Positions 2,690 to 36,422 of a stretch of DNA of 40,155 nucleotides are shown here, piece by piece. A program made the position numbers and the translations under genes. Source of the DNA: a virus (Duplodnaviria > Heunggongvirae > Uroviricota > Caudoviricetes); the IMG/VR virus record IMGVR_UViG_2541047888_000009. One strand, given 5' to 3'. Below the pieces are notes generated by a model, which was not told the origin of the DNA, searched no databases, and saw only the letters and a list, made by a program, of their open reading frames with translations. Each line of letters begins with the position of its first letter. Positions within the stretch are counted from its first letter, which is position 1.

Positions 2690-3080
2690 CGTCTTTTCTC
2701 CCCGGAATTAACTCGCGTGGATTATCGGAACGGTGGTAGAGCCATATACCAATACGCACAGCAACAATTGCTGACACGAATGCGCCAGCAGAGAAAACAA
2801 TCCCTTTTTCAAAAGAGTCCTGCGTGATAGTAGGGATCAGGCTGGCTATGCCGATAAGAATTGATGCTGCTGGTTTATAAAAAAGAAGGCCGCAGAGAAA
2901 GCTAAGCATCGACAAGAGTACACGACGACGAATGGGATACTCTACCGCAGAGGTAACAAAAATTACCGCTCCAGCCAAAGCCCCCAAAGCAACCTCAGGA
3001 GGAACTCCTGCTATCACCGCCGCCAGAGAACTCATGCTAAGCCACTGATTTAAAGTTTCACTGGTTAGTTGAGCTGACAT
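2676..3080 (-). CDS. Putative holin (multi-TM membrane protein)
   Basis: First gene of the lysis cassette; several hydrophobic helices (LAAVIAGVPPEVALGALAGAVIFV, ILIGIASLIP, FVSAIVAVRIGIWL); ATG at 3080 with GGTGGA RBS, alternative GTG at 3089. Confidence 0.5.
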   Translation of the reverse strand: MSAQLTSETLNQWLSMSSLAAVIAGVPPEVALGALAGAVIFVTSAVEYPIRRRVLLSMLSFLCGLLFYKPAASILIGIASLIPTITQDSFEKGIVFSAGAFVSAIVAVRIGIWLYHRSDNPRELIPGRKDDGNA

Positions 3081-3621: not shown

Positions 3622-6396
3622 TTACACTCCTGATACTTCAATAGATAGTTGAATCTTATTTGGCATCTTGTTGCTTAAATATATGGTTGCAAAGTCAAAC
3701 GAAATATTTAAGTTATTTTCATCACCATCATTATCTGAAAGAACTCCGGTTTTCAATACAACATTTTGCTTATTAATTTCTTTTAAAGGAGAAAAATCAA
3801 TTGCCTCACCACGATGAATAAGAACACCAACTGCAATTACCCCATGAATATCAAGTATGTCGTGCATATCAAGGCGAACACATGGGACATATCCACCAAC
3901 AAGGATACTTGTAGATTTGTTGGCTTCAAGTGTTATTAGATATTTTCCGTCTGGTTGAACTATTGTTCCTGCTATTCCATCTGGCGTGTTGAACATACCG
4001 CAGTATCTGTATCCTGCTCCAACAGGAACAATTCTGTTACCGCCAAGATCATGGAAATTTCGAACAATTATTGCACCAGGAACTGATGAATAAACCATTA
4101 CTGCCTCTGTTTGCCCTGATACAGAGTCTGATGTTTCTGGGTTCGCCATGCATAAATTACCACCAAAATAAATATTTTGGATTAGAGGGGTGAGGCCATC
4201 ATTAACCTCAAAACGTAAAAAGCCCTTGAGAACAGTCCTTGCGGTATTATTCTTAATAACAACAGGAAGTTCTTTATAGTAAGAGTTTCTGTCTGTCTGT
4301 GCCAGAGTTGTTTCAATAAAAACAAAAGGTCTGTGATTACGTTGAGTTGCATTCACAGGTTTGTACCTCAAGTTGTATGGCAAAGACATCTCAGTAAAAC
4401 CATCAATATAATTACAGTTCTGAATCGTGAACCCACCACCACTATATCTTACAAAAAAAGGAGCCGGGCCGCTAAATCCCCTGGCGTTCATTCCATCATA
4501 CACTTCATTTAATCCGCGTATTACACCAGCATAATACAAATTGACTGAATTGCCGCCTGTAAAAGTTGTTTCGTATGATGGGCCGTGTCCACCGCAACAT
4601 GAATTTCTTGTATCGCCATCAGGGAAAAATTTAACTCCATCATATGCAGTTCCACCACCCATCATCGTTGGATTTATAATGTTATTATACAGTGATACCA
4701 TTTGAGTCCCGCTTACATCAAGCCCCCTCCTGCAAGCAAATGCTATCATATCCACGACTGTGCAATAGCTGCTATTGTATATTTCAACACCATAACCAGT
4801 GCCGTTTGTTAAATCATATGCACGGTTTGAGTATTCAATATATGGCTCTATTATTTTCGTTCTGTAGCATGACTCAAGAAAAATTCCAGTTTCTGAAAAG
4901 CCGATTAGTTTTATTCCTTCTATATGCATATCAACAGCGCCATCTATCACAAGACCACGGAACCCCAAATCACCAGGAGATGCGTTCTGCGTGACAGGTC
5001 TTTCAAAATTGAAATCACCGACAATTCTGCCGTAGCATGGTTTTCTTTTATATATATTTGCCTTTCTTGTGATTTTAAACACGTCTCCAACAGATGGTTT
5101 AAACGGGAATGGTCCCTGAGCATATTCAAATTTTGCTGTTTTAGTGTCGTAATCCCAATGAGTTATGTATCTTGATATTCCGGCGTTAGCTCCGGTGACA
5201 CCTGTTACTTTTACCTGATTGTATTGTTTTGTTAATGTTGCATCATTACCAAATGAGAATTCACCTCCGGATACAGATGCTGTTACGGTCGTTGAGTAAT
5301 CATTGCTCGCAGAGTAGAAAAAATAAAATGCACCTGATATCTCCGCTTTTTTTGTTGCATTATCAAAAGCAGTAACAACATGCATTTCACCTTCACAAGC
5401 CTGTCCTCTATTATCTGTCTGAATTAAGCGATTACCATGAATCATAATTATATCGCCTGCATCAAAAGAATATGCTGAGTTAATTGATATTGATGTGTCA
5501 CCAGGATTTATTGTTGAATTATAGTCAATTGGCGTGGCATCTCCACCTTCGAGTCTTATGAAATAATCATCAATCCAGTTTGGACCAAGAGGCTCTTTTG
5601 CGGTTGACTTTAAGACAACCTTGCCATCAGCTACCCAGTCATAGTTATAATTATCCCCGCCGCATTTTATGCGGCTAATCAAATACACACCAGAATCCCA
5701 CTTCAGGCGTTTTCCGTTAGATGCGCAGTAAATGATGGCATTTGTTATTGCGTCTGTATCGTCAGTAATGCCATCCCCTTTTGCACCAAAATCGCGAACA
5801 TTGACGATATCCCGCATCTTATCCTGGAACGTTCGATATACTGCCCCAAAACCATACTGAATAAACCAACCAAAACCACCAACAACCCCGGCGATTGCAG
5901 CATCGACATAATTACGCATTGAGCGATTATTTACAGCATCCTGCTCAAGTGATGGATCTGCAAGGTTAGAAATTCTGTTTTGCTTTGCATCGTAATATTT
6001 TGCAAGCAAAGATGGTTTCATCAATGCACGTCTGAACCACCCAAAACATCGCTGGATCAGCATCGTCAGGTAGTCAAATGCATCCTCATGAACTTCGGGG
6101 AAAAATTTTCCCTGATTGCGAAGATCAGTCTCCTGCACCACATCAAGCACACGCTCTATCGTGATTTTCCAGCCAGCAGCAAGCGGCGACGGAAGAACAA
6201 CAGAACCGCCACTATAAGTGCCCGCCCCAGTTACCGTATAACCGGTATCCAGAACCAATTCTGTTACGTTACCGTTCAGGTCAGACACCTGAACAACCAG
6301 GTCTGTTTTTTTGAAAATGCGGAAGGTATACGGAAATGATGTCGTAACGCCGTTACCTGTGTATTCGTTGTGGTCAACTTCGGTTGAGACCGTCAT
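3622..6396 (-). CDS. Tailspike protein: T7 gp17-like N-terminal adaptor domain fused to a pectate-lyase-like beta-helix (polysaccharide depolymerase type)
   Basis: N-terminus EYTGNGVTTSFPYTFRIFKKTDLVV resembles the T7 tail-fibre N-terminal domain; internal motif NVRDFGAKGDGITDDTDAITNAI is typical of pectate-lyase superfamily beta-helix tailspikes; GGAG RBS. Confidence 0.8.
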   Translation of the reverse strand: MTVSTEVDHNEYTGNGVTTSFPYTFRIFKKTDLVVQVSDLNGNVTELVLDTGYTVTGAGTYSGGSVVLPSPLAAGWKITIERVLDVVQETDLRNQGKFFPEVHEDAFDYLTMLIQRCFGWFRRALMKPSLLAKYYDAKQNRISNLADPSLEQDAVNNRSMRNYVDAAIAGVVGGFGWFIQYGFGAVYRTFQDKMRDIVNVRDFGAKGDGITDDTDAITNAIIYCASNGKRLKWDSGVYLISRIKCGGDNYNYDWVADGKVVLKSTAKEPLGPNWIDDYFIRLEGGDATPIDYNSTINPGDTSISINSAYSFDAGDIIMIHGNRLIQTDNRGQACEGEMHVVTAFDNATKKAEISGAFYFFYSASNDYSTTVTASVSGGEFSFGNDATLTKQYNQVKVTGVTGANAGISRYITHWDYDTKTAKFEYAQGPFPFKPSVGDVFKITRKANIYKRKPCYGRIVGDFNFERPVTQNASPGDLGFRGLVIDGAVDMHIEGIKLIGFSETGIFLESCYRTKIIEPYIEYSNRAYDLTNGTGYGVEIYNSSYCTVVDMIAFACRRGLDVSGTQMVSLYNNIINPTMMGGGTAYDGVKFFPDGDTRNSCCGGHGPSYETTFTGGNSVNLYYAGVIRGLNEVYDGMNARGFSGPAPFFVRYSGGGFTIQNCNYIDGFTEMSLPYNLRYKPVNATQRNHRPFVFIETTLAQTDRNSYYKELPVVIKNNTARTVLKGFLRFEVNDGLTPLIQNIYFGGNLCMANPETSDSVSGQTEAVMVYSSVPGAIIVRNFHDLGGNRIVPVGAGYRYCGMFNTPDGIAGTIVQPDGKYLITLEANKSTSILVGGYVPCVRLDMHDILDIHGVIAVGVLIHRGEAIDFSPLKEINKQNVVLKTGVLSDNDGDENNLNISFDFATIYLSNKMPNKIQLSIEVSGV

Positions 6397-6500
6397 GTTA
6401 AATCTCCAGATAGTCGCAGCACCCGTTGCGCCGCATATCTGGTTATTCTATTACCTGAAAAACCACATATGGATAGAAATACTGTGAATATAAATAGATA

Positions 6501-6515
6501 TTACCTTTTAGGTAA
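6501..6515. promoter_or_regulatory. Copy of the operator palindrome TTACC-N5-GGTAA (TTACCTTTTAGGTAA) upstream of the LexA-controlled moron
   Basis: Exact match to the 15-bp inverted repeat that clusters in the immunity region. Confidence 0.5.
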
Positions 6516-6554
6516 TTTGCAAAACGTGCTGGATAGCAAACAAATTATTTGATA

Positions 6555-6570
6555 CTGTATAAATATACAG
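6555..6570 (+). promoter_or_regulatory. LexA (SOS) box CTGTATAAATATACAG
   Basis: Perfect CTGT-N8-ACAG palindrome with AT-rich centre, 22 bp upstream of the ATG at 6593 and overlapping the probable -10 region. Confidence 0.7.
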
Positions 6571-6592
6571 TTATTGCATGGAGAAGATTAAG

Positions 6593-6850
6593 ATGCAGCA
6601 GTATCACTATCCACTGGAAGACGGATTTACCGAAAGGATTCACACGCCGGGAGGCGTCAAGTCACTGGTGGAGGGATCGCACTTGATGAAATTACTCCGG
6701 GATCTAGATAAGGATGGATTTAATGTCGATGGCCCACTTGCCGAACTGACTGCACTGATTAACTACGTCACCAGCTCACAGATGTCTATGCAGGATCTGC
6801 AAACACATCTCGACTATTGTGCCGAACAATTACGAAAACAAACCACATAA
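6593..6850 (+). CDS. LexA-regulated small protein (85 aa), opposite strand to the virion genes; candidate antirepressor
   Basis: ATG at 6593 preceded by GGAG (6581..6584); LexA box immediately upstream; followed by a hairpin terminator. No family recognised. Confidence 0.6.
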   Translation: MQQYHYPLEDGFTERIHTPGGVKSLVEGSHLMKLLRDLDKDGFNVDGPLAELTALINYVTSSQMSMQDLQTHLDYCAEQLRKQTT

Positions 6851-9853: not shown

Positions 9854-11656
9854 TTAACCTCTCAAGAAACACGCCACAGCGACATCAAACAGGCTGGAAT
9901 CCTGTATTGCCTGCTCACTTTCCCTGTTCGCTTCATCCAGCACTTCACGCGCGCTGCGCGATTGTGGATTACCATCATCATCCAGCACGGTGATTATCAT
10001 GTCAGGTGATTCAAGCAGCGAGTCTTCAGCTATGCGCAGATCAATATCTCCTGCCTGATCCGCCATCATTTTTTGTTCTGCATGTTGCAATATTTTATCA
10101 GACTCAAAAGGAGCTACTTCGTCTGGCGTCCTGACCTCTGCTGTTTTATAGAATGAAACAGCCTGAGCATTAAGTTCACTTTCTGCCTGCTGTCTCCGAG
10201 CCAGTTCTGCTCGAGCTTCAAAAAACTGACCGCCAGGCTCATGCGGTGCCAACGCGTTACGGGAAAATTCCAGGCGTTCTTGTGCCTGCCGGATTCGTTG
10301 TTCAATATCGCGAATTCTGGCCTGTTTATCTGATCGAGCACGAGACAAAGCTTTACCGCTACCAGTTGGCTCTTCTGCAAGAATTTGTGCACGCTGTTCA
10401 GTGAGATTTTCAATAATTCGTTGGCTATTAGCGATTTCAGACTGGTAAACCTGTCTATCTCCACGCGGCAAAAGCTGCGCGGCCTGTTCTTCAAGCAACC
10501 GATTTTCTATAGCGCGCGCCGTTACTCCATCATCTACAGATGACAGAGCCTCATTAACTGCCTGAGACAGCAGACTCTTGCGCCCAGGAATTTCACTGAA
10601 AGATGCAGACTCAACAATGCTGGCAACGTCTACAGGTCTCCCCTGGCTAACATCAGACATAGCTTTTCGCAGAGCCTGAATGTGAGAATTGCGCGAAAGC
10701 ACGTTGATCGGCACGCCGGGCGCAATATCAATTTCAGCATGATGAGCGGCATTCGCCGCCAGTGCAGCATCAACATCAACTGGTGAAAAATTTGGTGCGC
10801 TTGTAGACTCGCCGCGAGAGTTAATAAATCTGCCGACTCCACCAAAAGCCACCCCAAGAACAGCATCAATAGCAATTGCCTGTCGATCCAACACATCATA
10901 CTGGTTAGCCATTTCGCTATAGCCACCATCACGAAGCGTTTTTGCAGTAAGCCCGCGCTGTGCCATACCGAACGCAATATTTGTACCTGCGGCATAGGCA
11001 ATATCTGGCGTTGCACGTACTGCTGTTGCCGCGGCGCGTCGCACTGAACTTTCACCCGTCCGCGCAAGCTGAGCCGCCACACCTTCCGCCAGCGCACCAC
11101 CAGCACGTAACCCGAGACTCATAGGGATCAGTGTTCCGGCACCAGCAGTAATACCCTGCACTAATCCCGCTTCCTGCGCCGTCCTGAAATCAACCCCCTG
11201 CGCTGTCAGTCGTTCAAACTCAGAAAAACCCTGTAGCGAAGTTACCGCCGCAGCACCTCCGACCGGACCACCGAGCGTTGTACCGACAACAGCCTGCCCG
11301 CCCATATCGAACAACCCATAAAGAACCTGCCCTGCGGTTCCGGTTGTCGCGGCATCAGGCGTCAGCCGCTTAACCTGCTGCTCTGCTAGTTTTCTCTGCT
11401 CGGCAATGTATGAAACTGAAGTGTCATTGAGCGAGGTGTTTTCGTTAACAAACTGAGCAATCGGGGATACGATTTTATCCATCCCTGCCCATAGCAACTG
11501 ATCTGGCTTTGCCACCAGCCCGGAGTACAAACCAGACAATGCCGCTCCTACAGCATTGTCGAAAAAACCAACATCGCTGTTAAAGCCAACTGGATTTGAT
11601 GCTGCTTCGTCAAGCTGCTGATTCTGGTTTACTGGATTAAGGCCAAAGTAACTCAT
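9854..11656 (-). CDS. Internal virion protein (600 aa)
   Basis: Tightly packed in the virion operon, Ala/Gly-rich, start overlaps the upstream gene stop. No motif recognised. Confidence 0.6.
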   Translation of the reverse strand: MSYFGLNPVNQNQQLDEAASNPVGFNSDVGFFDNAVGAALSGLYSGLVAKPDQLLWAGMDKIVSPIAQFVNENTSLNDTSVSYIAEQRKLAEQQVKRLTPDAATTGTAGQVLYGLFDMGGQAVVGTTLGGPVGGAAAVTSLQGFSEFERLTAQGVDFRTAQEAGLVQGITAGAGTLIPMSLGLRAGGALAEGVAAQLARTGESSVRRAAATAVRATPDIAYAAGTNIAFGMAQRGLTAKTLRDGGYSEMANQYDVLDRQAIAIDAVLGVAFGGVGRFINSRGESTSAPNFSPVDVDAALAANAAHHAEIDIAPGVPINVLSRNSHIQALRKAMSDVSQGRPVDVASIVESASFSEIPGRKSLLSQAVNEALSSVDDGVTARAIENRLLEEQAAQLLPRGDRQVYQSEIANSQRIIENLTEQRAQILAEEPTGSGKALSRARSDKQARIRDIEQRIRQAQERLEFSRNALAPHEPGGQFFEARAELARRQQAESELNAQAVSFYKTAEVRTPDEVAPFESDKILQHAEQKMMADQAGDIDLRIAEDSLLESPDMIITVLDDDGNPQSRSAREVLDEANRESEQAIQDSSLFDVAVACFLRG

Positions 11657-23131: not shown

Positions 23132-23145
23132 TTCAATGACTCCGG

Positions 23146-23352
23146 TTACTGACCAAGCAGCGTTTTACCGCTGGTATTAGCGGTTGATGTGTCGCCCTGA
23201 GAACCGGTAAGCAGCGTAGAACTACGACCAGCAGCAGCGCGACGGCGACGTGTTTCTTCGTCGCGGGCATCAACAACGGCGGCATCCTGCTCCTGTGGTG
23301 CTGCCTGAACTTCTGGTGTTGCAGGCACTGATGGTGAGCTACCCATGCACAT
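23146..23352 (-). CDS. Small Ser/Thr/Arg-rich protein upstream of portal
   Basis: ATG with GGAG RBS 8 nt upstream; 68 aa; low complexity. Confidence 0.4.
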   Translation of the reverse strand: MCMGSSPSVPATPEVQAAPQEQDAAVVDARDEETRRRRAAAGRSSTLLTGSQGDTSTANTSGKTLLGQ

Positions 23353-23420
23353 ATCAATGACTCCGTACGCAATTAAATCATTACCAATTTAACCACATAT
23401 GATTTATTTATCGTAGAATG

Positions 23421-23457
23421 TTGACATTTAACGCGTGAATTATTACCTTTCAGGTAA
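23421..23457 (+). promoter_or_regulatory. Candidate moron promoter: -35 TTGACA (23421..23426), 17-bp spacer, -10-like TACCTT inside an operator palindrome (23443..23457, TTACCTTTCAGGTAA)
   Basis: Consensus -35 hexamer; the -10 candidate coincides with the left half-site of the repressor operator motif. Confidence 0.4.
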
Positions 23458-23779
23458 CTAAAGAGCTCATTCTGGTTACTAACCTGACTGGCTTGTCGTT
23501 AAATTAAACAGGTGGAGTGAGCTTTTATTTTGAGCAGTACGGCGTATGGCACATGCGCCGATAGCGGTCTGGATACGTTTAAGGGGCACCCTCCCTTGCT
23601 CGGGCAAACGAACCAGGTAGCCGGAATGTGCAAGTCGAGCGGTTTTATTCCGCGCACGGGGATTCACCATCCCGGCGATTCGGTGTGACGCCTCGGAAGA
23701 GACGAGGGTACAACGATGAGAGCATTTATGGAGCCGCGACAAAGTGTGGCGCCTTAACAGGCTAAGTGCTCTCAGCGTT

Positions 23780-23856
23780 GTGGCATTAGCTCAGTCGGAC
23801 AGAGCAACCGCCTTCTAAGCGGTTGGTCGCAGGTTCGAATCCTGCATGCCACGCCA
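23780..23856 (+). tRNA. tRNA-Arg (anticodon UCU, reads AGA)
   Basis: Full cloverleaf folded by hand: acceptor GTGGCAT/ATGCCAC, D-arm GCTC-AGTCGGACA-GAGC, anticodon arm ACCGC-CTTCTAA-GCGGT, T-arm GCAGG-TTCGAAT-CCTGC, discriminator G, encoded CCA. Confidence 0.85.
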
Positions 23857-23899
23857 GAATCACGCCTAAGGACCGTGATGCCAGAAGTTCCAGGGGCTT

Positions 23900-23942
23900 G
23901 GCGGTGATGGTTTCCCTTGAAGGACTATCACCGCCCTTTTTA
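23900..23942 (+). terminator. Hairpin plus T-run downstream of the tRNA
   Basis: GGCGGTGAT ... ATCACCGCC (9-bp stem, long loop) followed by CTTTTTA. Confidence 0.45.
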
Positions 23943-24019
23943 CAGCAGGACGCCATTGCGATGACTTCATGCTGTAAACCCGTACAGCCACGGAAGGCAT
24001 AACTCATTGCTTCCAGTTC

Positions 24020-24043
24020 GCCCGGTTCGCCGGGCATTTTTTT
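24020..24043 (+). terminator. Strong intrinsic-terminator-like hairpin immediately upstream of the gp49-like gene RBS
   Basis: GCCCGG-TTCG-CCGGGC followed by ATTTTTTT; the AAGGTGA RBS and the ATG at 24055 follow directly. Confidence 0.5.
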
Positions 24044-24054
24044 AAGGTGAGATT

Positions 24055-24426
24055 ATGAACGACAAGCAAATCGAAAAAGAAATCGTTGAGAAAGGCAAAA
24101 CGGCACCGCGCGTTACGCCAGACCATATCGAAGGCATTATTGCTCAGGAGGCATATTTCACAGCAGAAGATGGTGCCTTTGGCAAAGCCATAAAAGCGAA
24201 ACATACTGGCGGAGAGGTAAACTACCAGCCGCACGAATCACTTTCTCTGCTGACGTTCTGCGTCCTGGTGCTGCGCAACGGCTTCACCGTCACCGGAGAG
24301 AGCGCCTGTGCAAGCCCGGAAAACTTTGATGCAGAAATTGGTCGGAAGATTGCCCGGCAGAATGCTGTAAACAAAATCTGGATGCTCGAAGGTTACTTGC
24401 TGAAGCAGAAGCTAAGCGAGCAATAA
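24055..24426 (+). CDS. Moron protein, probably of the phage gp49-like family (N4 Gp49 / Sf6 gene 66)
   Basis: 123 aa, opposite strand to the flanking terminase and portal genes; AAGGTGA RBS; segment TAEDGAFGKAIKAKHTGGEVNYQPHESLSLLTFCVLVLRNGFTVTGESACASPENFDAEIGRKIARQNA resembles that family. Family from memory. Confidence 0.6.
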   Translation: MNDKQIEKEIVEKGKTAPRVTPDHIEGIIAQEAYFTAEDGAFGKAIKAKHTGGEVNYQPHESLSLLTFCVLVLRNGFTVTGESACASPENFDAEIGRKIARQNAVNKIWMLEGYLLKQKLSEQ

Positions 24427-24430
24427 CACC

Positions 24431-24442
24431 GTGACATGTCAC
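24431..24442. repeat. 12-bp perfect palindrome GTGACATGTCAC, copy 2 of 3
   Basis: Exact repeat, 5 bp after the stop of the gp49-like gene and just before its terminator hairpin. Confidence 0.8.
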
Positions 24443-24446
24443 AAAC

Positions 24447-24474
24447 AGCCAGCCTATGAGCTGGCTTTGTTTTA
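24447..24474 (+). terminator. Rho-independent terminator of the tRNA/gp49-like moron
   Basis: AGCCAGC-CTATGA-GCTGGCT followed by TTGTTTT. Confidence 0.65.
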
Positions 24475-24516
24475 TCCTCATCAGAGGATATCAACGACAT
24501 TATCCCCACCAGCGGA

Positions 24517-25992: not shown

Positions 25993-26588
25993 TGATTGCC
26001 ATCCTGACGTTCTTTCAGTCTCTTCCTGGCTGCCGCTATGCGATCAGCAATTGTCACATTCACATTAACATCCAGGCGTTCTTTGAACGCGTTGACATCA
26101 ACATGCTTACCAATCAGCTCAAGGTTCTTCACCTTGTCAGGCCATTTAATTTTTTTGAGGATTGTCTCTATCGAATCCTCGTTCATGTTCATGATGGTCG
26201 ATGACAGATCAAAGCCGCTAAGCGTAGTGCGCCAGATTTTCGGCCACTCACGGATTGGTTTAAGGCTCCCATCGTCGTTGAGGATGTCGATCACGTCCAT
26301 CTGGTCGATCTCCACCAGGCGCATGAGAACGTAATCAGCACTGACGCGCATTCGTTTGTTGCGCTCCTCCATCAACTCGGCAATCCGTTTTTGAATGCGT
26401 TCATCGCGCATCATGACACTGGCTTTAACTGCCGCTGTATTTGGGGAGAATCCTGCGTTAATCGCTGCCTGAGTCTGGTTTTCAGGCGTTTTGATGTATG
26501 ACTGGCAATAAGCCTCCTGCATTGCTGTTAGTGGCTTAAATTGCGTTGATTTGCGTTTATAGGTTTTAGGTTCAGCAGGCATCATAAC
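25989..26588 (-). CDS. Terminase small subunit
   Basis: Immediately upstream of and overlapping the large subunit; segment LTAMQEAYCQSYIKTPENQTQAAINAGFSPNTAAVKASVMM matches the small-terminase pattern. Start at internal Met assumed. Confidence 0.7.
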   Translation of the reverse strand, partial: VMMPAEPKTYKRKSTQFKPLTAMQEAYCQSYIKTPENQTQAAINAGFSPNTAAVKASVMMRDERIQKRIAELMEERNKRMRVSADYVLMRLVEIDQMDVIDILNDDGSLKPIREWPKIWRTTLSGFDLSSTIMNMNEDSIETILKKIKWPDKVKNLELIGKHVDVNAFKERLDVNVNVTIADRIAAARKRLKERQDGNQ

Positions 26589-26659
26589 CACCGTGGTAAT
26601 AGTTACCGTTGTGGTAATAGTACCATGCAAAATAAAGCCGCCATAGTTGGCGGCAGTAT

Positions 26660-26872
26660 TCAAAGTCCATCAAATTCATCGTAAAAACTCTCGTCAAGAT
26701 ACCCTTCCCATTTACCGCGAATGAAAATTACATCCTCGCCGCAAGGGTGCTGACTGTCGATAACTATATCCCTCCTGGCGCAACCATACTTATGCATGAG
26801 AAATTTAACCTCTTTCGGAAAATTTGCTGAGTTATCTCTCATATCTTCAAGGTCGTAGCGTATTTTTGGCAT
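26660..26872 (-). CDS. Small hypothetical protein upstream of the terminase genes
   Basis: ATG at 26872 (MPKIRYDLEDM...); the listed ORF extends to a GTG inside the 12-bp palindrome, which is unlikely to be the true start. Confidence 0.45.
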   Translation of the reverse strand: MPKIRYDLEDMRDNSANFPKEVKFLMHKYGCARRDIVIDSQHPCGEDVIFIRGKWEGYLDESFYDEFDGL

Positions 26873-30555: not shown

Positions 30556-30900
30556 TCAGAACTCTTCGATGTTCCAGCCACCACCTGCTTTCTTTGGTTT
30601 AACCGTTACCCCGATGATTCGGAACGGATACTGATCTGCGGCGACTTTGGTTTTCACCCTGGCGTCGTCGGTCCAGAAACCTTTCACTTCGTGCAGTTCC
30701 ATCTCTCCGGTGGCGAGCATCACAGCGAAATCGGGCGTATAGAACGTGTTGTCAGCTAACCGCAACTTGATACCCTCGAATCGATACCAGGCGATTTCCC
30801 CTGCACGTTTACGCTGCTCAAGGTGCTGGCAATACGCAGATTCTGTTTTGTTCATCTGGCCTGTTTTGAGTCGACCAAGAGCCTGTATCTGTTTTCTCAT
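30556..30900 (-). CDS. DUF1064-like phage protein
   Basis: 114 aa; pattern SKxEAxYxxxLE...GEIxxWxFE...YTPDFxV...ExHEVKG matches recalled DUF1064 sequences. Confidence 0.55.
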   Translation of the reverse strand: MRKQIQALGRLKTGQMNKTESAYCQHLEQRKRAGEIAWYRFEGIKLRLADNTFYTPDFAVMLATGEMELHEVKGFWTDDARVKTKVAADQYPFRIIGVTVKPKKAGGGWNIEEF

Positions 30901-30903
30901 GAT

Positions 30904-30980
30904 TTACCTCTAAGGTAATTAAAAACCACATAAGACACGAAATCAATAGAGTTTAGAATGTTTTGTTACCTGATAGGTAA
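30904..30980 (-). promoter_or_regulatory. Internal promoter flanked by two operator palindromes (30904..30918 TTACCTCTAAGGTAA; 30966..30980 TTACCTGATAGGTAA)
   Basis: On the minus strand: -35 TTGATT, 17-bp spacer, -10 TTTAAT, with one operator over the -10/+1 and one upstream of the -35. Confidence 0.5.
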
Positions 30981-30992
30981 TTATTGAGACGT

Positions 30993-31012
30993 AAAAAAAT
31001 GCGCTATCGCGC
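30993..31012 (-). terminator. Terminator-like hairpin after the P-like gene
   Basis: Minus strand GCGCGATAGCGC hairpin followed by TTTTTTT. Confidence 0.45.
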
Positions 31013-31017
31013 TGGTA

Positions 31018-31818
31018 TTACTTGATAAATCCTGCCGCCTTTCCCCGCCTGTATTCCTCCATCAGCCACTGCGCCGGTGTTATTCCCCCCAGGGTAGCGG
31101 CGTTAGGCATACACCCGAAACTTCGCCCTGGTGGATGGTAAACGTCTCTCCCTGTGTCCGGAGGCGTACTCATGGGCTCTGGCTTTGCCTGTATGCTGAT
31201 CACCGGATCGGGTATCTGCTGTCCGGAAGCCACCTTTTTCGCCCAATCATCGAGCAGCCTGCGTGCGTGTTTCTCAACCTCAATCTCGCTAAGCTGGCGC
31301 TGATACATTGCACGGCGGGTATCACATACGACCCAGTACATAACCGGATGTCGCCACGGGAATCTTTCGGGACCACCAGGATATAAACTTTTTTCCTTGC
31401 TGTACCGGTGAAACTCCGCCATCACATCGTCAATGGTGACGCCAAGAACCATCTTGCTGTCTTTACACCACTTGATAAATTGCCCTGGAGACGGCCAGAA
31501 CGGAGATTCACTGGCGCGGGCGTGGCGCATACCAGCAGAAACCTGTTCACGGGTTCGGATCCCCCCTTCGGCAAACGCAGCAATCCACTGCTGTTTTGCA
31601 GCAACTTCCTGCTCTGGCGTCTTCAGGTTGGTTACCACTGCCGCCGGAAACAGTTGTTTCAACTGTTTGAAAAGGGCATCAACAAGCCTCTCTGCTGACA
31701 TGTTCACTACGTTGTCATTGTTGGTGTACTGATGCTCATAACCTGACATGCGAGAAAGGGCTTCTCCGTCACGGTTTTGTATCGCGGTAAAAACGTTGTT
31801 CACAAGAAATCCTCCCAT
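31018..31818 (-). CDS. Replication protein P-like (helicase loader)
   Basis: Segment QQWIAAFAEGGIRTREQVSAGMRHARASESPFWPSPGQFIKWCK aligns by eye with lambda P (RRQWVLAFRENGITTMEQVNAGMRVARRQNRPFLPSPGQFVAWCR). Confidence 0.8.
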   Translation of the reverse strand: MGGFLVNNVFTAIQNRDGEALSRMSGYEHQYTNNDNVVNMSAERLVDALFKQLKQLFPAAVVTNLKTPEQEVAAKQQWIAAFAEGGIRTREQVSAGMRHARASESPFWPSPGQFIKWCKDSKMVLGVTIDDVMAEFHRYSKEKSLYPGGPERFPWRHPVMYWVVCDTRRAMYQRQLSEIEVEKHARRLLDDWAKKVASGQQIPDPVISIQAKPEPMSTPPDTGRDVYHPPGRSFGCMPNAATLGGITPAQWLMEEYRRGKAAGFIK

Positions 31819-32615
31819 GCTTCAGGGCTGTTCCAGTGCGGAACGTTGTTATCAGGTAATGTTGATTGCTTCTGTCTGCTAATCTGCAGCCGCCTTGCCA
31901 GCTTCTGCTCCCACTGTGCCTGATGGTATGCCTTACCCTCAGCCATCCAGTAAATTCTGAACTCTGCAAGTTCCTGTGCCGTTGGCAGACTGTCCAGGTA
32001 GATCCCCTGCAATGAGCTTTTCCGAAGAAAGTCATCTGATGGTTGCCATTGTTCATGCATGACAAATTTGCCTAATTGCCCTGGCCCACCAGGAGGAACA
32101 AAGTTATTCATCACGGCGTTGTTTGCGCCGGGGTCATGAGGCACAGAATCCCCGCTTTTTGTCCTGCTCTCCCTCTCTTGGTTAAATGACTGGTTATATG
32201 ACTGGTTCTGGATCCCGTTTTTGGGATCATTCAACATCCCGTTTTTGGGATCATTCAACATCCCGTTTTTGGGTATATTCCCGTTTTCGGTAACATTACC
32301 GTTTTCGGGTTCATTACCCCCTTCCCGGTTGCCTTTAATGTTCCCGTTTTTGGTTATATTAAGAGAGAAAACCCGCACTCTTTTCGTCGCTCCCTTTCTC
32401 TCTCCGGTATCTGAAATAAGCCCCATTTTCATGAGCGATATAAGCCCGGCCTGCACGGTTTTTTTATTCAGGCAAGTGTCTTTAACGAGGCGTTCTATGC
32501 TGGGGTAGCAGAGGTTATATTCATCGGCTCTGTCAGCCATCGAGAGCAGTATGAGCTTTAATGACGAGCTACCTGGATCTGTCTCCCAGGCCCAATCTGT
32601 TGCATGTCTGCTCAT
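31800..32615 (-). CDS. Replication initiator, O-like (N-terminal winged-helix domain, repeat-encoded linker, DnaT-like C-terminus)
   Basis: GGAG RBS; N-terminal LKLILLSMADRADEYNLCYPSIERLVKDT...; internal Asn/Gly repeats encoded by the iteron DNA; immediately upstream of and overlapping the P-like gene. Confidence 0.7.
   Translation of the reverse strand: MSRHATDWAWETDPGSSSLKLILLSMADRADEYNLCYPSIERLVKDTCLNKKTVQAGLISLMKMGLISDTGERKGATKRVRVFSLNITKNGNIKGNREGGNEPENGNVTENGNIPKNGMLNDPKNGMLNDPKNGIQNQSYNQSFNQERESRTKSGDSVPHDPGANNAVMNNFVPPGGPGQLGKFVMHEQWQPSDDFLRKSSLQGIYLDSLPTAQELAEFRIYWMAEGKAYHQAQWEQKLARRLQISRQKQSTLPDNNVPHWNSPEAWEDFL
32212..32360. repeat. Iteron-like direct repeats (candidate replication origin) inside the O-like gene
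   Basis: ATCCCGTTTTTGGGATCATTCAAC appears twice exactly in tandem, followed by degenerate copies (CCCGTTTTTGGGTATATTC, CCGTTTTCGGTAACATTAC, CGTTTTCGGGTTCATTACC, CCCGTTTTTGGTTATATT). Confidence 0.6.
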
Positions 32616-32630
32616 GATTAATCTCCGCTA

Positions 32631-32831
32631 TCAGCTTGAATGTTGTGGGGAGGAATTAATCATGATCTGCTTAATCTCTGCCCTGATACGACGGTTTGAT
32701 TCCATGGTGCACTCAACACAGTGTCCGTTGTAAACCCAGCGTTCACTGTCATGTCCGTGCTTACATGTTTTTCCGGTGTAGTAGCGTTTAAGTCCGCGCT
32801 TTGCGGCATCAATACGTGTAATGATTTCCAT
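32631..32831 (-). CDS. Small Cys/His-rich protein (about 66 aa) after the Cro-like gene
   Basis: ATG at 32831 (MEIITRIDAAKRGLKRYYTGKTCKHGHDSERWVYNGHCVEC...); weak RBS; function unknown. Confidence 0.4.
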   Translation of the reverse strand: MEIITRIDAAKRGLKRYYTGKTCKHGHDSERWVYNGHCVECTMESNRRIRAEIKQIMINSSPQHSS

Positions 32832-32911
32832 GGTAAGCCCTGTTATTAGTATTGGGATTACGGTTATTTTGTGCTGACACAAAAAAAAGATCAACCATAT
32901 TTGGTTTTTTA

Positions 32912-32926
32912 TTACCTTTGAGGTAC
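32912..32926. promoter_or_regulatory. Operator palindrome copy (TTACCTTTGAGGTAC) downstream of the Cro-like gene
   Basis: 14/15 match to the operator consensus, next to the terminator-like hairpin. Confidence 0.45.
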
Positions 32927-32934
32927 GAATAGAT

Positions 32935-32960
32935 ATGAAAAGACCGCCGGATGGCGGTCT
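32935..32960 (-). terminator. tR1-like terminator hairpin downstream of the Cro-like gene
   Basis: AGACCGCC-GGAT-GGCGGTCT stem-loop followed on the minus strand by TTTTCA (short U-tract). Confidence 0.4.
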
Positions 32961-32981: not shown

Positions 32982-33212
32982 TCATGAGTAGAAGAAGTAT
33001 GCCAGTTCTGCTTTTGAGCGCAGCCATTGTCTTGATTTACAGGCTTTAAAAAGCCCATCCATCAATACCTTACCTGGCATTTTGCGCTTACCTGTTAAGT
33101 GAGTCTGGATATAGTGACTCGTCGTTCCGGCTTCCTGTGCGAAGGCTTCACGCTCATCCGGAGTAAGTGCAAGCCAGTGCTTTTTGAAATCGAAATGTCC
33201 GTTATCGCTCAT
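32982..33212 (-). CDS. Cro-like HTH regulator
   Basis: 76 aa, divergent from the repressor gene across the operator cluster; HTH-like segment REAFAQEAGTTSHYIQTHLTGKRK. Confidence 0.55.
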   Translation of the reverse strand: MSDNGHFDFKKHWLALTPDEREAFAQEAGTTSHYIQTHLTGKRKMPGKVLMDGLFKACKSRQWLRSKAELAYFFYS

Positions 33213-33237: not shown

Positions 33238-33311
33238 ATAATAAATATTCACCTATAAGGTAACAAAAATCAAGGATAGTTACCCATGAGGTGCATTTAC
33301 CTGTTGGGTAA
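33238..33311. promoter_or_regulatory. OR-like region: three operator palindromes (33249..33263, 33280..33294, 33297..33311) and a PR-like promoter reading leftward
   Basis: Sites TCACCTATAAGGTAA, TTACCCATGAGGTGC, TTACCTGTTGGGTAA; on the minus strand -35 TTGTTA (33261..33266), 17-bp spacer, -10 TATTAT (33238..33243), about 25 bp before the Cro-like ATG. Confidence 0.65.
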
Positions 33312-33366: not shown

Positions 33367-33951
33367 ATGAAAAGTATCCAGGACGTCCGCAGGCAAAATC
33401 TCAACGACTTGATCGACCGTGAATTCAATGGTGTTCAGACGCGGATGGCCGAAAAACTTGGAACTCAGGCAAATCTGGTAAACCGCTGGGCTCTTGGTAA
33501 GAAGGTTATCGGCGATCAGGTTGCGCGAAAAATTGAAGCTGCCGCCAATAAACCCCGTAACTGGCTTGATATCGATCGCTCGCTTTCTCAGGAAGGTTTT
33601 CAGCCTGTCGGCCCAAGCGACATTGGCCAGCTGGCGGCTCACAACCTGGAACGCTGGATGAGCGAAAGCCGCGACCTTTCAACACAGGGAAAACTTCACC
33701 GCGCATCCGGCGTAGCCCAGGTGACAATCAGCCGCCTGTTAAACAATGAGGTCAGCGTTTCCATTTCCACCCTGGAGAATGTTGCATCTGCATTCGGGCG
33801 TCACGGATATGAACTACTGATTCACCCGCACGACCCTGCAACTATCAACTATGACCGCTCGCGCTACGCATTGTTACCTGAAACAGAGAAAGCAAAGATC
33901 GAAAGTTACATTGAATTTGTCATCAACCAGAACGAAAAAAGCAAACAATAA
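33367..33951 (+). CDS. Prophage repressor (CI-like), tandem XRE-type HTH domains, no recognisable S24 peptidase domain
   Basis: Two HTH-like segments (QTRMAEKLGTQANLVNRWALGKK and ASGVAQVTISRLLNNEVSVSISTLENVASAFG); sits between operator clusters, divergent from the Cro-like gene; terminator follows; no SD before the ATG. Confidence 0.65.
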   Translation: MKSIQDVRRQNLNDLIDREFNGVQTRMAEKLGTQANLVNRWALGKKVIGDQVARKIEAAANKPRNWLDIDRSLSQEGFQPVGPSDIGQLAAHNLERWMSESRDLSTQGKLHRASGVAQVTISRLLNNEVSVSISTLENVASAFGRHGYELLIHPHDPATINYDRSRYALLPETEKAKIESYIEFVINQNEKSKQ

Positions 33952-34008: not shown

Positions 34009-34085
34009 TTACCTTACGGGTAATTTTTTTAACTCATATCTATTGACACCAAACCAAATAAGCATAATTATTACCTCAACGGTAA
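34009..34085 (+). promoter_or_regulatory. OL/PL-like region: operators at 34009..34023 (TTACCTTACGGGTAA) and 34071..34085 (TTACCTCAACGGTAA) flanking a -35 TTGACA (34043..34048)
   Basis: Consensus -35, AT-rich -10 region (CATAATTAT) about 16 bp downstream, operator over the +1 region; heads the rightward early operon. Confidence 0.6.
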
Positions 34086-35604: not shown

Positions 35605-36422
35605 AACCGGGAATTTATTTCGACATCAGCAATGAGGACTACCACGCCGGTGACGGCGTGAGTAAGTCGCAACTGGACATGGTTGCCAAGAATCCGGCGC
35701 TTCTTAAATGGGTTCAGGCAGCACCAGAAGACGAAGAGAAAAAGTCTGCACTGGATATGGGAACCGCATTGCACTGTCTGCTTCTGGAGCCTGGAGAGTT
35801 CGACAAACGCTTCATTGTTTCACCGAAATTCGATCGTCGGACGAAACAAGGTAAAGCTGACGAAGAGGCATTTCTTCGTGATGTGGCGGATATGGGGATT
35901 ACGGTACTTGATGCCGAGCAGTGGCGGAAACTGGAGCTGATGCGTGATAGCGCAATGGCTCACCCGGCGGCACGCTGGATGCTGGAAGCCCCTGGTTACT
36001 GCGAAGCATCAATGTACTGGAACGATGAAGAGACGGGGGAGTTGTGCCGAATTCGTCCAGACAAATGGCTGAACGAGCACAACGTGATCGTCGACGTGAA
36101 AAAGGTTGCAGATATGGACCGTTTTGCACGCCACATCGAGGAATTCCGCTACCACGTGCAGGACGCAATGTACCGCGAAGGCGCAATGAGGGTTACTGGT
36201 CAGCCGCATGGTTTTTTCTTTCTTGCCGTGAGCGAAAGCATTGATTGTGGTCGGTATCCGGTACGCGTGTTCGAGCTGGATGCGCAGGATGTCGATGCCG
36301 GGCACGCTCTGTTCCGCCGGGATCTGAATACCTATCACGAATGCCGCATCAATGATGAATGGGGCGGTGTGGAAATCATTAAACGCCCTGAGTGGGCACG
36401 CAAACAGGATATGTACATATGA
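35601..36422 (+). CDS. Recombination exonuclease (RecE/YqaJ-like PD-(D/E)xK nuclease)
   Basis: 273 aa immediately upstream of and overlapping the RecT-like gene; motif region IVDVKKVADMDRFARHIEEFRYHVQDAMY consistent with a D..E.K nuclease core. Confidence 0.6.
   Translation: MKPGIYFDISNEDYHAGDGVSKSQLDMVAKNPALLKWVQAAPEDEEKKSALDMGTALHCLLLEPGEFDKRFIVSPKFDRRTKQGKADEEAFLRDVADMGITVLDAEQWRKLELMRDSAMAHPAARWMLEAPGYCEASMYWNDEETGELCRIRPDKWLNEHNVIVDVKKVADMDRFARHIEEFRYHVQDAMYREGAMRVTGQPHGFFFLAVSESIDCGRYPVRVFELDAQDVDAGHALFRRDLNTYHECRINDEWGGVEIIKRPEWARKQDMYI

What the first reader, a model, noticed from the sequence alone, without database searches (positions are those of the whole stretch)
30904..30980. 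Operator-flanked internal promoter between the P-like gene and the downstream early genes
After a terminator-like hairpin that follows the P-like gene, two further operator copies bracket a candidate promoter (TTGATT-17-TTTAAT) reading into the DUF1064/Ea22/small-ORF block. This implies a second repressor-controlled transcription unit, not a single long PR transcript.
Basis: inference. Interest (0 to 1): 0.5.

Follow-up and report, generated by a model that had tools for sequence, protein, structure and literature searches.

The report
Repressor-guarded internal promoter in prophage
Two repressor-binding palindromes bracket a weak-looking promoter just after the replication genes of a common phiV10/epsilon15-type E. 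coli prophage; this is a conserved copy of the phage's own early-left promoter design and is ordinary for this phage group.

Summary
After the P-like gene stop (31018) come a 4-bp GCGC hairpin plus T7, then operator O1 (30980..30966) and 19 nt. Next are TTGATT, 17 nt, TTTAAT and operator O2 (30918..30904, containing the ribosome-binding site), then the DUF1064 ATG (30900).

The palindrome TTACC-N5-GGTAA occurs 13 times in the window against 0.47 expected. The layout and the 62-bp operator spacing are identical to the phage's PL region (34009..34085).

The window is a phiV10-like Uetakevirus. It encodes homologues of the crystallised SPC32H repressor (Rep) and antirepressor (Ant), with a LexA box before ant. 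The cassette is conserved in:
- about 78 of 80 distinct relatives;
- 6 of 6 prophages found only through Rep homology;
- SPC32H itself;
- 529 of 5,426 complete E. coli genomes.

The epsilon15 RefSeq record already marks the homologous O1 as a repressor site.

Caveats:
- The promoter hexamers alone are not significant, and the -10 lacks the key A.
- The hairpin is weak, so PR read-through is not excluded.
- A similar cassette follows cro, so this is one of several units.

Verdict: a new member of a known kind, of modest interest.

The parts
31018..31818 (-). P-like replication gene that ends just upstream of the cassette
   Evidence: Pfam Phage_lambda_P, E=1.5e-56. The ORF is listed.
30993..31012 (-). 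Weak intrinsic-terminator-like element: GCGC-GATA-GCGC hairpin (31012..31001), A, then T7 (30999..30993)
   Evidence: Sequence read. The hairpin is -7.4 kcal/mol, against -13.8 to -14.8 for neighbouring terminators. phiV10 annotates it as a putative rho-independent terminator. Across 78 distinct relatives the stem and T7 are invariant, the loop takes 10 different forms, and the T-run ends 12 nt before O1 in 77 of 78.
30966..30980 (.). Upstream operator O1, TTACCTATCAGGTAA (perfect palindromic half-sites)
   Evidence: The homologous site in epsilon15 is annotated 'protein_bind: repressor' (sequence). The half-sites are invariant while the central 5 bp take 31 different forms in 75 distinct relatives.
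30941..30946 (-). Candidate -35 hexamer TTGATT, preceded by the conserved CTA
   Evidence: CTATTGA is invariant in 75 relatives and is also present at PL.
30918..30923 (-). Candidate -10 hexamer TTTAAT, 17-nt spacer, last T shared with O2
   Evidence: Family variants are TTTAAT (34), TTAAAT (30), ATAAAT (9), GTAAAT (1) and TTATAT (1). It lacks A at position 2.
30904..30918 (.). Downstream operator O2, TTACCTTAGAGGTAA. It overlaps the -10 end and the predicted +1 (about 30912..30910) and holds the DUF1064 Shine-Dalgarno GAGG (30910..30907)
   Evidence: In relatives the O2 centre is restricted to purine-rich, SD-like sequences.
30556..30900 (-). DUF1064 gene, the first gene of the downstream block (followed by an Ead/Ea22-like gene and small ORFs)
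   Evidence: Pfam DUF1064 E=3.4e-07 and Ead_Ea22 E=6.9e-28.
33367..33951 (+). Repressor (Rep), the protein inferred to bind O1 and O2
   Evidence: phmmer hit to PDB 5D50 chain A (SPC32H repressor), E=3.5e-42 over residues 1-190.
34009..34085 (+). PL cassette with the same blueprint: O, 19 nt, TTGACA, 17 nt, AATTAT abutting O; operator centres 62 bp apart
   Evidence: Aligned position by position.
33249..33311 (.). OR region between rep and the cro-like gene: three operators (33311..33297 perfect, 33294..33280 with 2 mismatches, 33263..33249 with 1 mismatch). The third lies in the spacer of the PR candidate TTGATT (33273..33268)
6501..6850 (+). Antirepressor module that would release Rep from all operators: Rep operator 6501..6515, LexA box 6555..6570, ant gene 6578..6850
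   Evidence: Ant matches PDB 5D50 chain E with E=4.1e-47. The LexA box is CTGTATAAATATACAG.

Best explanation
The 77-bp element is a repressor-controlled internal promoter cassette of a phiV10/epsilon15-type (Uetakevirus) prophage. It is built on the same blueprint as the phage's PL.

In the lysogen (inferred): the SPC32H-type repressor Rep occupies O2 and O1. O2 covers the end of the -10, the start site and the first transcribed bases. O1 lies 62 bp upstream, about six helical turns, so on the same face of the DNA. The literature describes Rep as working as a tetramer, which I infer gives it two palindrome-binding units. One tetramer probably clamps both operators and wraps the promoter in a small loop, keeping RNA polymerase off.

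After DNA damage (from the literature on SPC32H, applied here by homology): LexA releases the ant promoter. Ant then splits Rep tetramers into weakly binding dimers. This promoter opens together with PL and PR. It transcribes DUF1064, the Ea22-like gene and the small ORFs on an mRNA with a very short leader of about 10 nt.

The short hairpin plus T7 just upstream partly insulates this unit from transcription arriving through the replication genes.

Shown here: the sequence elements, their excess over chance, the identity of layout with PL, conservation in relatives, and the homology of Rep and Ant.

Inferred, not shown: Rep binding at these two sites, promoter activity and strength, looping, and the efficiency of the terminator.
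For: 1. Operator identity and excess. There are 13 hits against 0.47 expected, and all eight perfect sites are non-coding. The same motif forms OR and PL.

2. Same blueprint as PL. Both have O, 19 nt, TTGAnn, 17 nt, and a -10 whose last T is the first T of the next O, with centres 62 bp apart.

3. Conservation with a footprint pattern.
- All five GenBank relatives carry the cassette: phiV10, BUCT554, SPN1S, epsilon15 and Tyrion.
- So does SPC32H, the experimentally studied phage.
- The upstream gene varies (P, DnaT-like or another replication gene) and the downstream gene varies (DUF1064 or RuvC).
- 78 of 80 distinct hairpin-anchored regions from viral contigs carry the exact cassette.
- Half-sites, CTATTGA and the AAT of the -10 are invariant, while the O1 centre (31 variants in 75) and the spacers vary.

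4. Ascertainment by protein only. All 6 enterobacterial prophages found through Rep homology (41-74% identity) have both an internal pair and a PL pair 61-63 bp apart. De novo palindrome counting recovers TTACC-N5-GGTAA as the top palindrome.

5. An informative exception. L065 lacks the usual layout but has TTGCAA-17-AATTAT with one operator in the spacer and one after the -10. A repressible promoter is therefore kept even when the layout changes.

6. The repressor system is present. Rep matches 5D50_A at E=3.5e-42. Ant matches 5D50_E at E=4.1e-47. There is a LexA box before ant.

7. Literature.
- Rep binds palindromic DNA as a tetramer and Ant breaks the tetramer (PMC9638917).
- Rep carries a looping-type tetramerisation domain, and its two pairs of dimerisation domains are about 100 A apart (PMC9986798).
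- Overexpressing the repressor of the close relative ZX5, which that paper says is identical to phiV10's, cut endolysin and holin transcripts by >99.9% (PMC9782041).

8. Curators of epsilon15 already marked the homologous O1 as a repressor site.
Against: - There is no transcript 5'-end, footprint or reporter data for this site in any relative that I could find.
- The primary SPC32H and epsilon15 papers are not in the library.
- The hexamers alone are not significant.
- TTTAAT lacks the A at position 2 that sigma-70 promoters almost always have (established knowledge). In 75 of 75 family variants the 17-nt register has T there. An 18-nt register gives TAAATT in 40 of 75, but TTAATT in this window's clade.
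- The predicted leader is only about 10 nt, with the SD at its very 5' end.
- The upstream hairpin is weak, so downstream genes could be served mainly by read-through.
- Whether one tetramer bridges O1 and O2 is pure inference.
Confidence: 0.65

Rival explanations
1. The operators act without a working internal promoter. Rep bound at O1 and O2 would be a roadblock or loop anchor that reinforces the weak hairpin terminator in the lysogen. Downstream genes would be expressed by read-through from PR or the post-cro promoter once Rep is removed. On this reading the element is a repressor-assisted, conditional terminator.
For: - The -10 lacks A at position 2, and the hexamers are not significant.
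- The hairpin is only 4 bp at -7.4 kcal/mol and is never stronger in 78 relatives.
- The T7 run ends 12 nt before O1 in 77 of 78. From my memory of the roadblock literature, a protein block stalls RNA polymerase about 14 nt upstream of its site, which would put the stall at the U-tract.
- PL and the late unit also have an operator 19 nt after a terminator stem.
Against: - A pure roadblock does not explain why CTATTGA and the AAT of the -10 stay invariant at fixed distances while neighbouring positions vary.
- It does not explain the identity of layout with PL, which must be a promoter.
- It does not explain why L065 keeps a different but complete promoter.
- There are almost no indels anywhere in the cassette, so the fixed 12-nt distance is not specific evidence.
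- The two roles are not mutually exclusive.
Confidence: 0.2
2. The regulated promoter between the operators points the other way, on the + strand: AAGACA (30932), 16 nt, TAGAAT (to 30959). It would make an antisense RNA into the 3' end of the P-like gene.
For: The consensus scan lists it at 9/12, with A at position 2 and T at position 6 of the -10. It also lies between O2 and O1.
Against: - The hexamers are not conserved outside the phiV10 clade. In BUCT554, epsilon15 and SPN1S the corresponding bases are ATGCGC/GCGCAT.
- The minus-strand TTGA is invariant.
- There is no downstream + strand gene or terminator.
- The PL paralogue fixes the orientation relative to O1 and O2.
Confidence: 0.05
3. 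The palindromes act at the RNA level. As hairpins, or by O1:O2 pairing in read-through mRNA, they would modulate the DUF1064 ribosome-binding site that lies inside O2.
For: O2 contains the SD sequence. The minimum-free-energy fold of the 91-nt region pairs O1 with O2.
Against: - The fold is no better than shuffled sequence (z = -0.60).
- Each palindrome alone gives only -3.5 kcal/mol.
- The same motif occurs at OR, PL and before ant, where O1-type copies are not transcribed in that sense.
- There is no Rfam match. The only hit, to a eukaryotic snoRNA family, is below the gathering threshold.
Confidence: 0.05
4. Chance similarity or a decaying relic with no function.
For: The promoter hexamers by themselves are at chance level.
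Against: - The motif excess is 13 against 0.47.
- The spacing is an exact duplicate of PL.
- The cassette is conserved in about 78 of 80 distinct relatives and in 6 of 6 prophages found through Rep alone, across five genera.
- It is present in 529 of 5,426 complete E. coli genomes.
Confidence: 0.02

Closest known systems
Rep/Ant lysis-lysogeny switch of Salmonella phage SPC32H (Kim & Ryu 2013; Kim et al. 2016; PDB 5D50 and 5D4Z)
   Same: The window encodes clear homologues of both proteins, with a LexA box before ant. SPC32H itself carries the same internal cassette between its replication gene and its DUF1064-type gene.
   Different: As far as secondary sources tell, the published work concerns the proteins and antirepression. 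I found no description of this internal operator pair or its promoter, and I could not read the primary papers. The window's Rep is only about 43% identical to the SPN1S/SPC32H-type Rep.
Repressor-binding sites annotated in the epsilon15 RefSeq record NC_004775.2 (Kropinski et al. 2007 genome)
   Same: The record marks ATTACCAAAAGGGTAAT at 35906..35922 as 'protein_bind: repressor'. This site lies between the replication gene and the next gene and is the homologue of O1.
   Different: Only O1 is annotated there. O2, the -35/-10 pair and the upstream hairpin are not. The downstream gene there is a RuvC-type resolvase rather than DUF1064.
The phage's own PL, and lambda-type PL/PR operator-promoter regions
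   Same: Palindromic operators overlap a sigma-70 promoter, and the design is identical to PL in this window.
   Different: Lambda has operators only at OL and OR, and it reaches downstream genes by N/Q antitermination (established knowledge). Here operator-guarded promoters recur after terminators along the early-right arm and before terS.
Dispersed-operator regulons of temperate phages (P1 C1 repressor; N15 CB; phiC31 repressor sites), cited from memory
   Same: One immunity repressor has operators at many separate promoters around the genome.
   Different: The protein families and site types are unrelated. Here the sites come as phased pairs 62 bp apart or as tandem pairs 17-20 bp apart.
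Mycobacteriophage L5 'stoperators' (gp71 roadblocks), cited from memory
   Same: Repressor sites lie inside transcription units and downstream of other genes, and could stop elongating polymerase.
   Different: L5 sites are asymmetric, orientation-dependent and mostly without a promoter. The sites here are palindromic and bracket a conserved -35/-10.
Small repression loops formed by tetrameric repressors (lac, gal), cited from memory
   Same: Two operators on the same DNA face flank or overlap a promoter, and the repressor is a tetramer with two DNA-binding units.
   Different: A 62-bp loop is at the small end of what is known. Looping by Rep is untested.

Membership tests
SPC32H-type Rep/Ant switch | Repressor homologous to SPC32H Rep over its whole length (N-terminal HTH, middle dimerisation domain, C-terminal tetramerisation domain) | tested here: met
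   phmmer against PDB 5D50_A: E=3.5e-42, residues 1-190 of 194. Alignment with four relatives.
SPC32H-type Rep/Ant switch | Small antirepressor homologous to SPC32H Ant | tested here: met
   The product of 6578..6850(+) matches 5D50_E with E=4.1e-47.
SPC32H-type Rep/Ant switch | LexA box at the ant promoter | tested here: met
   CTGTATAAATATACAG at 6555..6570, 8 nt before the ant ORF.
SPC32H-type Rep/Ant switch | Rep physically binds the TTACC-N5-GGTAA palindromes, including O1 and O2 | not testable with these tools
   Only indirect support is available: the motif excess, its position at OR and PL, the epsilon15 curators' 'repressor' features, and the statement that Rep binds palindromic sites as a tetramer (PMC9638917).
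Sigma-70 promoter under operator control | -35 and -10 hexamers with a 16-18 nt spacer, including A at position 2 and T at position 6 of the -10 | tested here: inconclusive
   TTGATT-17-TTTAAT matches 9/12, but position 2 of the -10 is T. The scanner therefore did not call it. Some relatives have TAAATT in an 18-nt register.
Sigma-70 promoter under operator control | An operator overlaps the core promoter or the start site | tested here: met
   O2 shares its first base with the -10 and covers the predicted +1. The same relation holds at PL and at the late extended -10.
Sigma-70 promoter under operator control | Promoter elements conserved against a variable background in relatives | tested here: met
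   CTATTGA and the AAT of the -10 are invariant in 75 distinct sequences, while the O1 centre and the spacers vary. All 6 Rep-ascertained prophages show it.
Sigma-70 promoter under operator control | A mapped transcription start that responds to the repressor | not testable with these tools
   No TSS data were found.
Intrinsic (rho-independent) terminator | GC-rich stem-loop followed directly by a U-run, placed after a stop codon | tested here: inconclusive
   The T7 run and the position are right. The stem is only 4 bp (-7.4 kcal/mol), below the scanner's 5-bp minimum and about half the stability of neighbouring terminators. It is conserved in 78 relatives and annotated as putative in phiV10.
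L5-type stoperator | Asymmetric, orientation-dependent repressor site inside an operon without an associated promoter | tested here: not met
   The sites are perfect palindromes and flank a conserved -35/-10.
Lambda-type N antitermination site (nut) | boxA/boxB RNA element and an N-like protein | not tested
   No search for nut-like elements was made. Rfam at gathering threshold found only a tRNA in the window.

The most novel reading that the evidence does not exclude
The hairpin-T7-O1 arrangement may be a repressor-assisted, conditional terminator fused to a micro-looped promoter.

In the lysogen, a Rep tetramer clamping O1 and O2 (62 bp apart) would silence the promoter. It would also stall any incoming polymerase on the U-tract of a deliberately weak 4-bp hairpin, because the T-run ends 12 nt before O1. 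That would make termination efficient.

Once Ant splits Rep, the promoter would fire and the terminator would become leaky.

More broadly, Uetakeviruses would run their whole lytic programme as a chain of terminator-insulated units, each directly locked by the same tetrameric repressor: PL, PR, post-cro, this one, the late/terS unit and ant. This would replace a lambda-style antitermination cascade.
Probability: 0.2. Interest if true: 0.55.

Novelty: new member of a known kind. Interest (0 to 1): 0.3.

Why it matters
The cassette shows that in this very common prophage type, about one in ten complete E. coli genomes, the immunity repressor probably guards several separate promoters rather than one switch region.

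The rigid 62-bp operator pairing gives a concrete, testable DNA target for the unusual tetrameric SPC32H-type repressor. A 2023 structural paper says the way this repressor represses genes 'has not been extensively characterized'.

For annotation, it argues for marking O1, O2 and the promoter in phiV10-like genomes. Beyond that it is an expected feature of the family, not a surprise.

Tried and rejected
1. Primary literature. The epsilon15 genome paper and both SPC32H papers are not held under PMC id, DOI or PubMed id. I could not check which operators were tested experimentally.

2. Literal search for six operator sequences in full texts: no paper.

3. The ZX5 paper mentions four predicted promoters but gives no positions in the text.

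4. Covariation of operator sequence with repressor type.
- All full-length Rep homologues found (41-78% identity) use the same TTACC/GGTAA half-sites, so no heteroimmune test was possible.
- The distant hits (Paraburkholderia, Hydrogenovibrio, Thiomicrospira) match only the N-terminal 70 residues and show no enriched palindrome.
- A test of A/T-richness of operator centres between PL and the internal O1 was weak: 26/4/5/2.

5. Residual homology between PL and the internal cassette outside the half-sites is marginal: 23 of 57 positions, with 1,169 of 20,000 shuffles as good. This points to a shared design rather than a recent duplication.

6. Rfam found nothing relevant.

7. A known RNA structure or an RNA fold of the region was rejected (z = -0.60).

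8. The + strand promoter candidate was rejected as not conserved.

9. The hairpin-anchored set is partly biased, because the loci came from a pattern scan and the hairpin regular expression fixes the stem. The Rep-ascertained set is the unbiased control.

Full report
**What the window is**

The early region is 98% identical to Escherichia phages phiv142-3, PAS61 and phiV10, genus Uetakevirus, the epsilon15-like temperate podoviruses. The early-right genes run on the MINUS strand:
- repressor, 33367..33951 (+);
- cro-like gene, 32982..33212 (-);
- a small gene starting at 32831;
- DnaT/HTH 'O-like' gene, 31800..32615;
- P-like gene, 31018..31818 (Pfam Phage_lambda_P, E=1.5e-56);
- a 117-nt gap;
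- DUF1064, 30556..30900;
- an unassigned ORF, then an Ead/Ea22-like gene and small ORFs.

**Checking the observation**

Read on the minus strand, the gap contains these elements in order:
- TAA stop, 31020..31018.
- GCGC-GATA-GCGC hairpin, 31012..31001.
- A, then T7, 30999..30993.
- 12 nt.
- O1 TTACCTATCAGGTAA, 30980..30966.
- 19 nt.
- TTGATT, 30946..30941.
- 17 nt.
- TTTAAT, 30923..30918.
- O2 TTACCTTAGAGGTAA, 30918..30904.
- ATC, then the ATG at 30900.

The palindrome TTACC-N5-GGTAA has 13 matches at <=1 mismatch against 0.47 expected, and none of 100 shuffles reached that number. All eight perfect matches are non-coding. A repeat finder independently reports the two copies 62 bp apart.

The promoter hexamers match the consensus 9/12. 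Such pairs occur about 0.85 per kb per strand here, so alone they prove nothing. The consensus scan skipped this pair because position 2 of the -10 is T.

The hairpin has only four base pairs at -7.4 kcal/mol. The three neighbouring terminators have 7-8 pairs at -13.8 to -14.8 kcal/mol.

**The key anatomical result**

The early-left promoter region on the + strand has these elements in order:
- the strong rep terminator;
- O, 34009..34023;
- 19 nt;
- TTGACA, 34043..34048;
- 17 nt;
- AATTAT, 34066..34071;
- O, 34071..34085.

Every distance is the same as in the finding. That includes the shared T between the -10 and the downstream operator, and the 62-bp centre-to-centre spacing, which is about six helical turns.

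Outside the half-sites the two cassettes share mainly TCTATTGA (23 of 57 positions, a marginal result). They therefore share a design rather than being a recent duplication.

**Who binds**

- The repressor matches the crystallised repressor of Salmonella phage SPC32H: PDB 5D50 chain A, E=3.5e-42, residues 1-190.
- The 90-aa product of 6578..6850 (+) matches the SPC32H antirepressor, chain E, E=4.1e-47.
- A perfect LexA box, CTGTATAAATATACAG, lies at 6555..6570.

According to papers I could read:
- Rep binds palindromic DNA as a tetramer, dimers bind weakly, and the Ant tetramer breaks the Rep tetramer (PMC9638917).
- Rep carries a p53-like 'looping' tetramerisation domain, with two pairs of dimerisation domains about 100 A apart. 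The same paper notes that its mechanism of gene repression 'has not been extensively characterized' (PMC9986798).
- In the close relative ZX5, whose repressor that paper says is identical to phiV10's, repressor overexpression cut endolysin and holin transcripts by >99.9% (PMC9782041).

**Comparative evidence**

The hairpin-T7-O-promoter-O cassette is present in phiV10, BUCT554, SPN1S, epsilon15 and Tyrion and in SPC32H itself. The upstream gene there is P, a DnaT-like gene or another replication gene. The downstream gene is DUF1064 or a RuvC-type resolvase.

A pattern scan of viral contigs returned more than 120 loci. These fall into a PL class and an internal class. Anchoring on the hairpin instead of the operators gave 80 distinct regions, of which 78 have the exact cassette.

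In 75 distinct sequences aligned without gaps:
- the half-sites, CTATTGA, the AAT of the -10, the hairpin stem and the T7 are invariant;
- the O1 centre takes 31 different forms;
- the hairpin loop takes 10 forms;
- the spacers vary.

This is a footprint pattern and not simply low divergence.

The O2 centre is limited to purine-rich sequences because O2 doubles as the ribosome-binding site.

The two exceptions are informative:
- L046 has one mismatch in O2.
- L065 has TTGCAA-17-AATTAT with one operator in the spacer and one after the -10. That is a PR-like layout that still gives a repressible promoter.

As a control free of DNA-pattern bias, I searched bacterial genomes with a Rep protein alignment. 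Six enterobacterial prophages, from Superficieibacter, Erwinia, Klebsiella, two Citrobacter species and Scandinavium, have Rep 41-74% identical. All six have TTACC-N5-GGTAA as their top palindrome by de novo counting. All six have both a PL pair and an internal pair preceded by the GCGC hairpin and T7. The spacing is 62 bp except in:
- the Scandinavium prophage, which has 61 bp in both cassettes, with 16-nt promoter spacers in both;
- the Klebsiella prophage, which has 63 bp at PL.

The 161-bp region occurs in 529 of 5,426 complete E. coli genomes. Under it, only the two flanking genes are annotated.

**What was already known**

- The epsilon15 RefSeq record marks four 'protein_bind: repressor' features. 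Three are at PL. One is at 35906..35922, between the replication gene and the next gene, and is the homologue of O1.
- phiV10's record marks the hairpin as a putative rho-independent terminator.
- O2, the promoter and the PL-like design are not annotated in any record I saw, including SPC32H.
- I could not obtain the primary papers. A text search for operator sequences found nothing.

**Most likely mechanism (inference built on the above)**

In the lysogen:
- Rep occupies O2, blocking the -10 and start site.
- Rep also occupies O1 on the same DNA face.
- One tetramer probably clamps both operators.

After DNA damage:
- LexA cleavage lets Ant be made.
- Ant splits the Rep tetramers.
- This promoter opens along with PL and PR, and transcribes the DUF1064/Ea22 block from about 30911.

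The weak hairpin partly separates this unit from upstream transcription.

My confidence is about 0.65 for a working Rep-controlled promoter. It is higher, about 0.85, that O1 and O2 are genuine Rep sites.

**Weak points**

- TTTAAT lacks the A at position 2. All 75 family variants have T there in the 17-nt register. An 18-nt register gives TAAATT in 40 of 75, but TTAATT in this clade.
- The predicted leader is only about 10 nt.
- The terminator is weak, so read-through may supply much of the downstream expression.

**Rivals**

1. Operators without a promoter, acting as a roadblock or loop anchor, possibly making the weak hairpin a Rep-dependent terminator. The T-run ends 12 nt before O1 in 77 of 78. 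From memory, roadblocked polymerase stalls about 14 nt before the block. This does not explain the conserved -35/-10 or the L065 variant, but it could coexist with a promoter.
2. A + strand promoter, AAGACA-16-TAGAAT. It is not conserved outside the phiV10 clade.
3. An RNA-level role. The fold is no better than shuffled sequence, and there is no relevant Rfam hit.
4. Chance. This is excluded by the counts and the conservation.

**Wider pattern seen on the way**

- The same logic recurs after the cro terminator. An operator with one mismatch lies at 32926..32912, then 17 nt, TTGATC, 17 nt and CAAAAT, followed in relatives by a degenerate operator.
- It also recurs before terS. After a terminator comes an extended -10, TGgTACTAT, whose last T starts operator 26617..26603. 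A second operator, 26599..26585, holds the terS ribosome-binding site. This layout is conserved in viral contigs.
- Perfect operators also lie before ant (6501..6515) and at 23443..23457.

**Verdict**

The element is a further, well-conserved copy of a known operator-promoter design in a known repressor system. The homologous upstream operator is already flagged in epsilon15.

I rate it a new member of a known kind, with interest 0.3. The most novel reading still open is a Rep-clamped micro-loop combined with a repressor-assisted conditional terminator, within a genome-wide chain of such units. I give that a probability of about 0.2 and an interest of about 0.55 if true.

Noticed in passing
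window 6440..6850: This is the antirepressor module. The ant gene (6578..6850, +) is homologous to SPC32H Ant. A perfect LexA box, CTGTATAAATATACAG, lies at 6555..6570. A perfect Rep operator lies at 6501..6515, about 50 bp upstream. ant may therefore be under both LexA and Rep control, which could give a positive feedback loop on induction.
   Followed up: partly
window 26585..26660: This is the start of the late operon. A terminator hairpin lies at 26654..26637. It is followed by an extended -10-like TGgTACTAT (26625..26617), whose last T begins operator 26617..26603. A second operator with one mismatch, 26599..26585, contains the terS ribosome-binding site, and the terS ATG is at 26582. The TG-n-TA-nn-AT|TACC layout is conserved in viral contigs. 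The late genes may be directly repressed by Rep.
   Followed up: partly
window 32850..32960: After the cro-like gene's strong terminator (32960..32941) comes another cassette. It has an operator with one mismatch (32926..32912), 17 nt, TTGATC (32894..32889), 17 nt and CAAAAT (32871..32866). In BUCT554 and SPN1S a degenerate operator follows the -10. The next gene probably starts at the ATG at 32831, not at the TTG listed at 32894.
   Followed up: partly
window 23132..24516: A 1.4-kb island lies between the large terminase gene and the portal gene. It holds tRNA-Arg(tct) at 23780..23856 (+), a Phage_gp49_66 family ORF at 24055..24426 (+), a perfect Rep operator at 23443..23457 upstream of a 68-aa ORF, and a second CTGT-N8-ACAG at 23972..23987. 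The island is shared with phiV10.
   Followed up: partly
window 32179..32318: There are tandem direct repeats inside the DnaT/O-like gene: period 24, 2.6 copies, 100% identical, at 32212..32273; period 18, 3.1 copies, at 32263..32318; and period 12 at 32179..32207. They encode the repeated NG..N peptide stretch. They look like origin iterons inside the initiator gene, as in lambda.
   Followed up: no
L130 (Scandinavium sp. prophage) 6561..6636 and 10640..10715: In this one prophage both the internal and the PL operator pairs are 61 bp apart instead of 62, each with a 16-nt promoter spacer. This could be a coordinated change, or it could be coincidence.
   Followed up: no
L065 6353..6460: This is a variant internal cassette. 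Two operators 18 bp apart sit directly before a RuvC-type gene, with TTGCAA-17-AATTAT overlapping them. It is a PR-like layout in place of the usual PL-like one.
   Followed up: partly
window 2942..2956 and 6269..6283: Two one-mismatch operator-like sites lie inside coding sequence. The second is in the tailspike gene. They are compatible with the roughly 0.5 chance hits expected.
   Followed up: no
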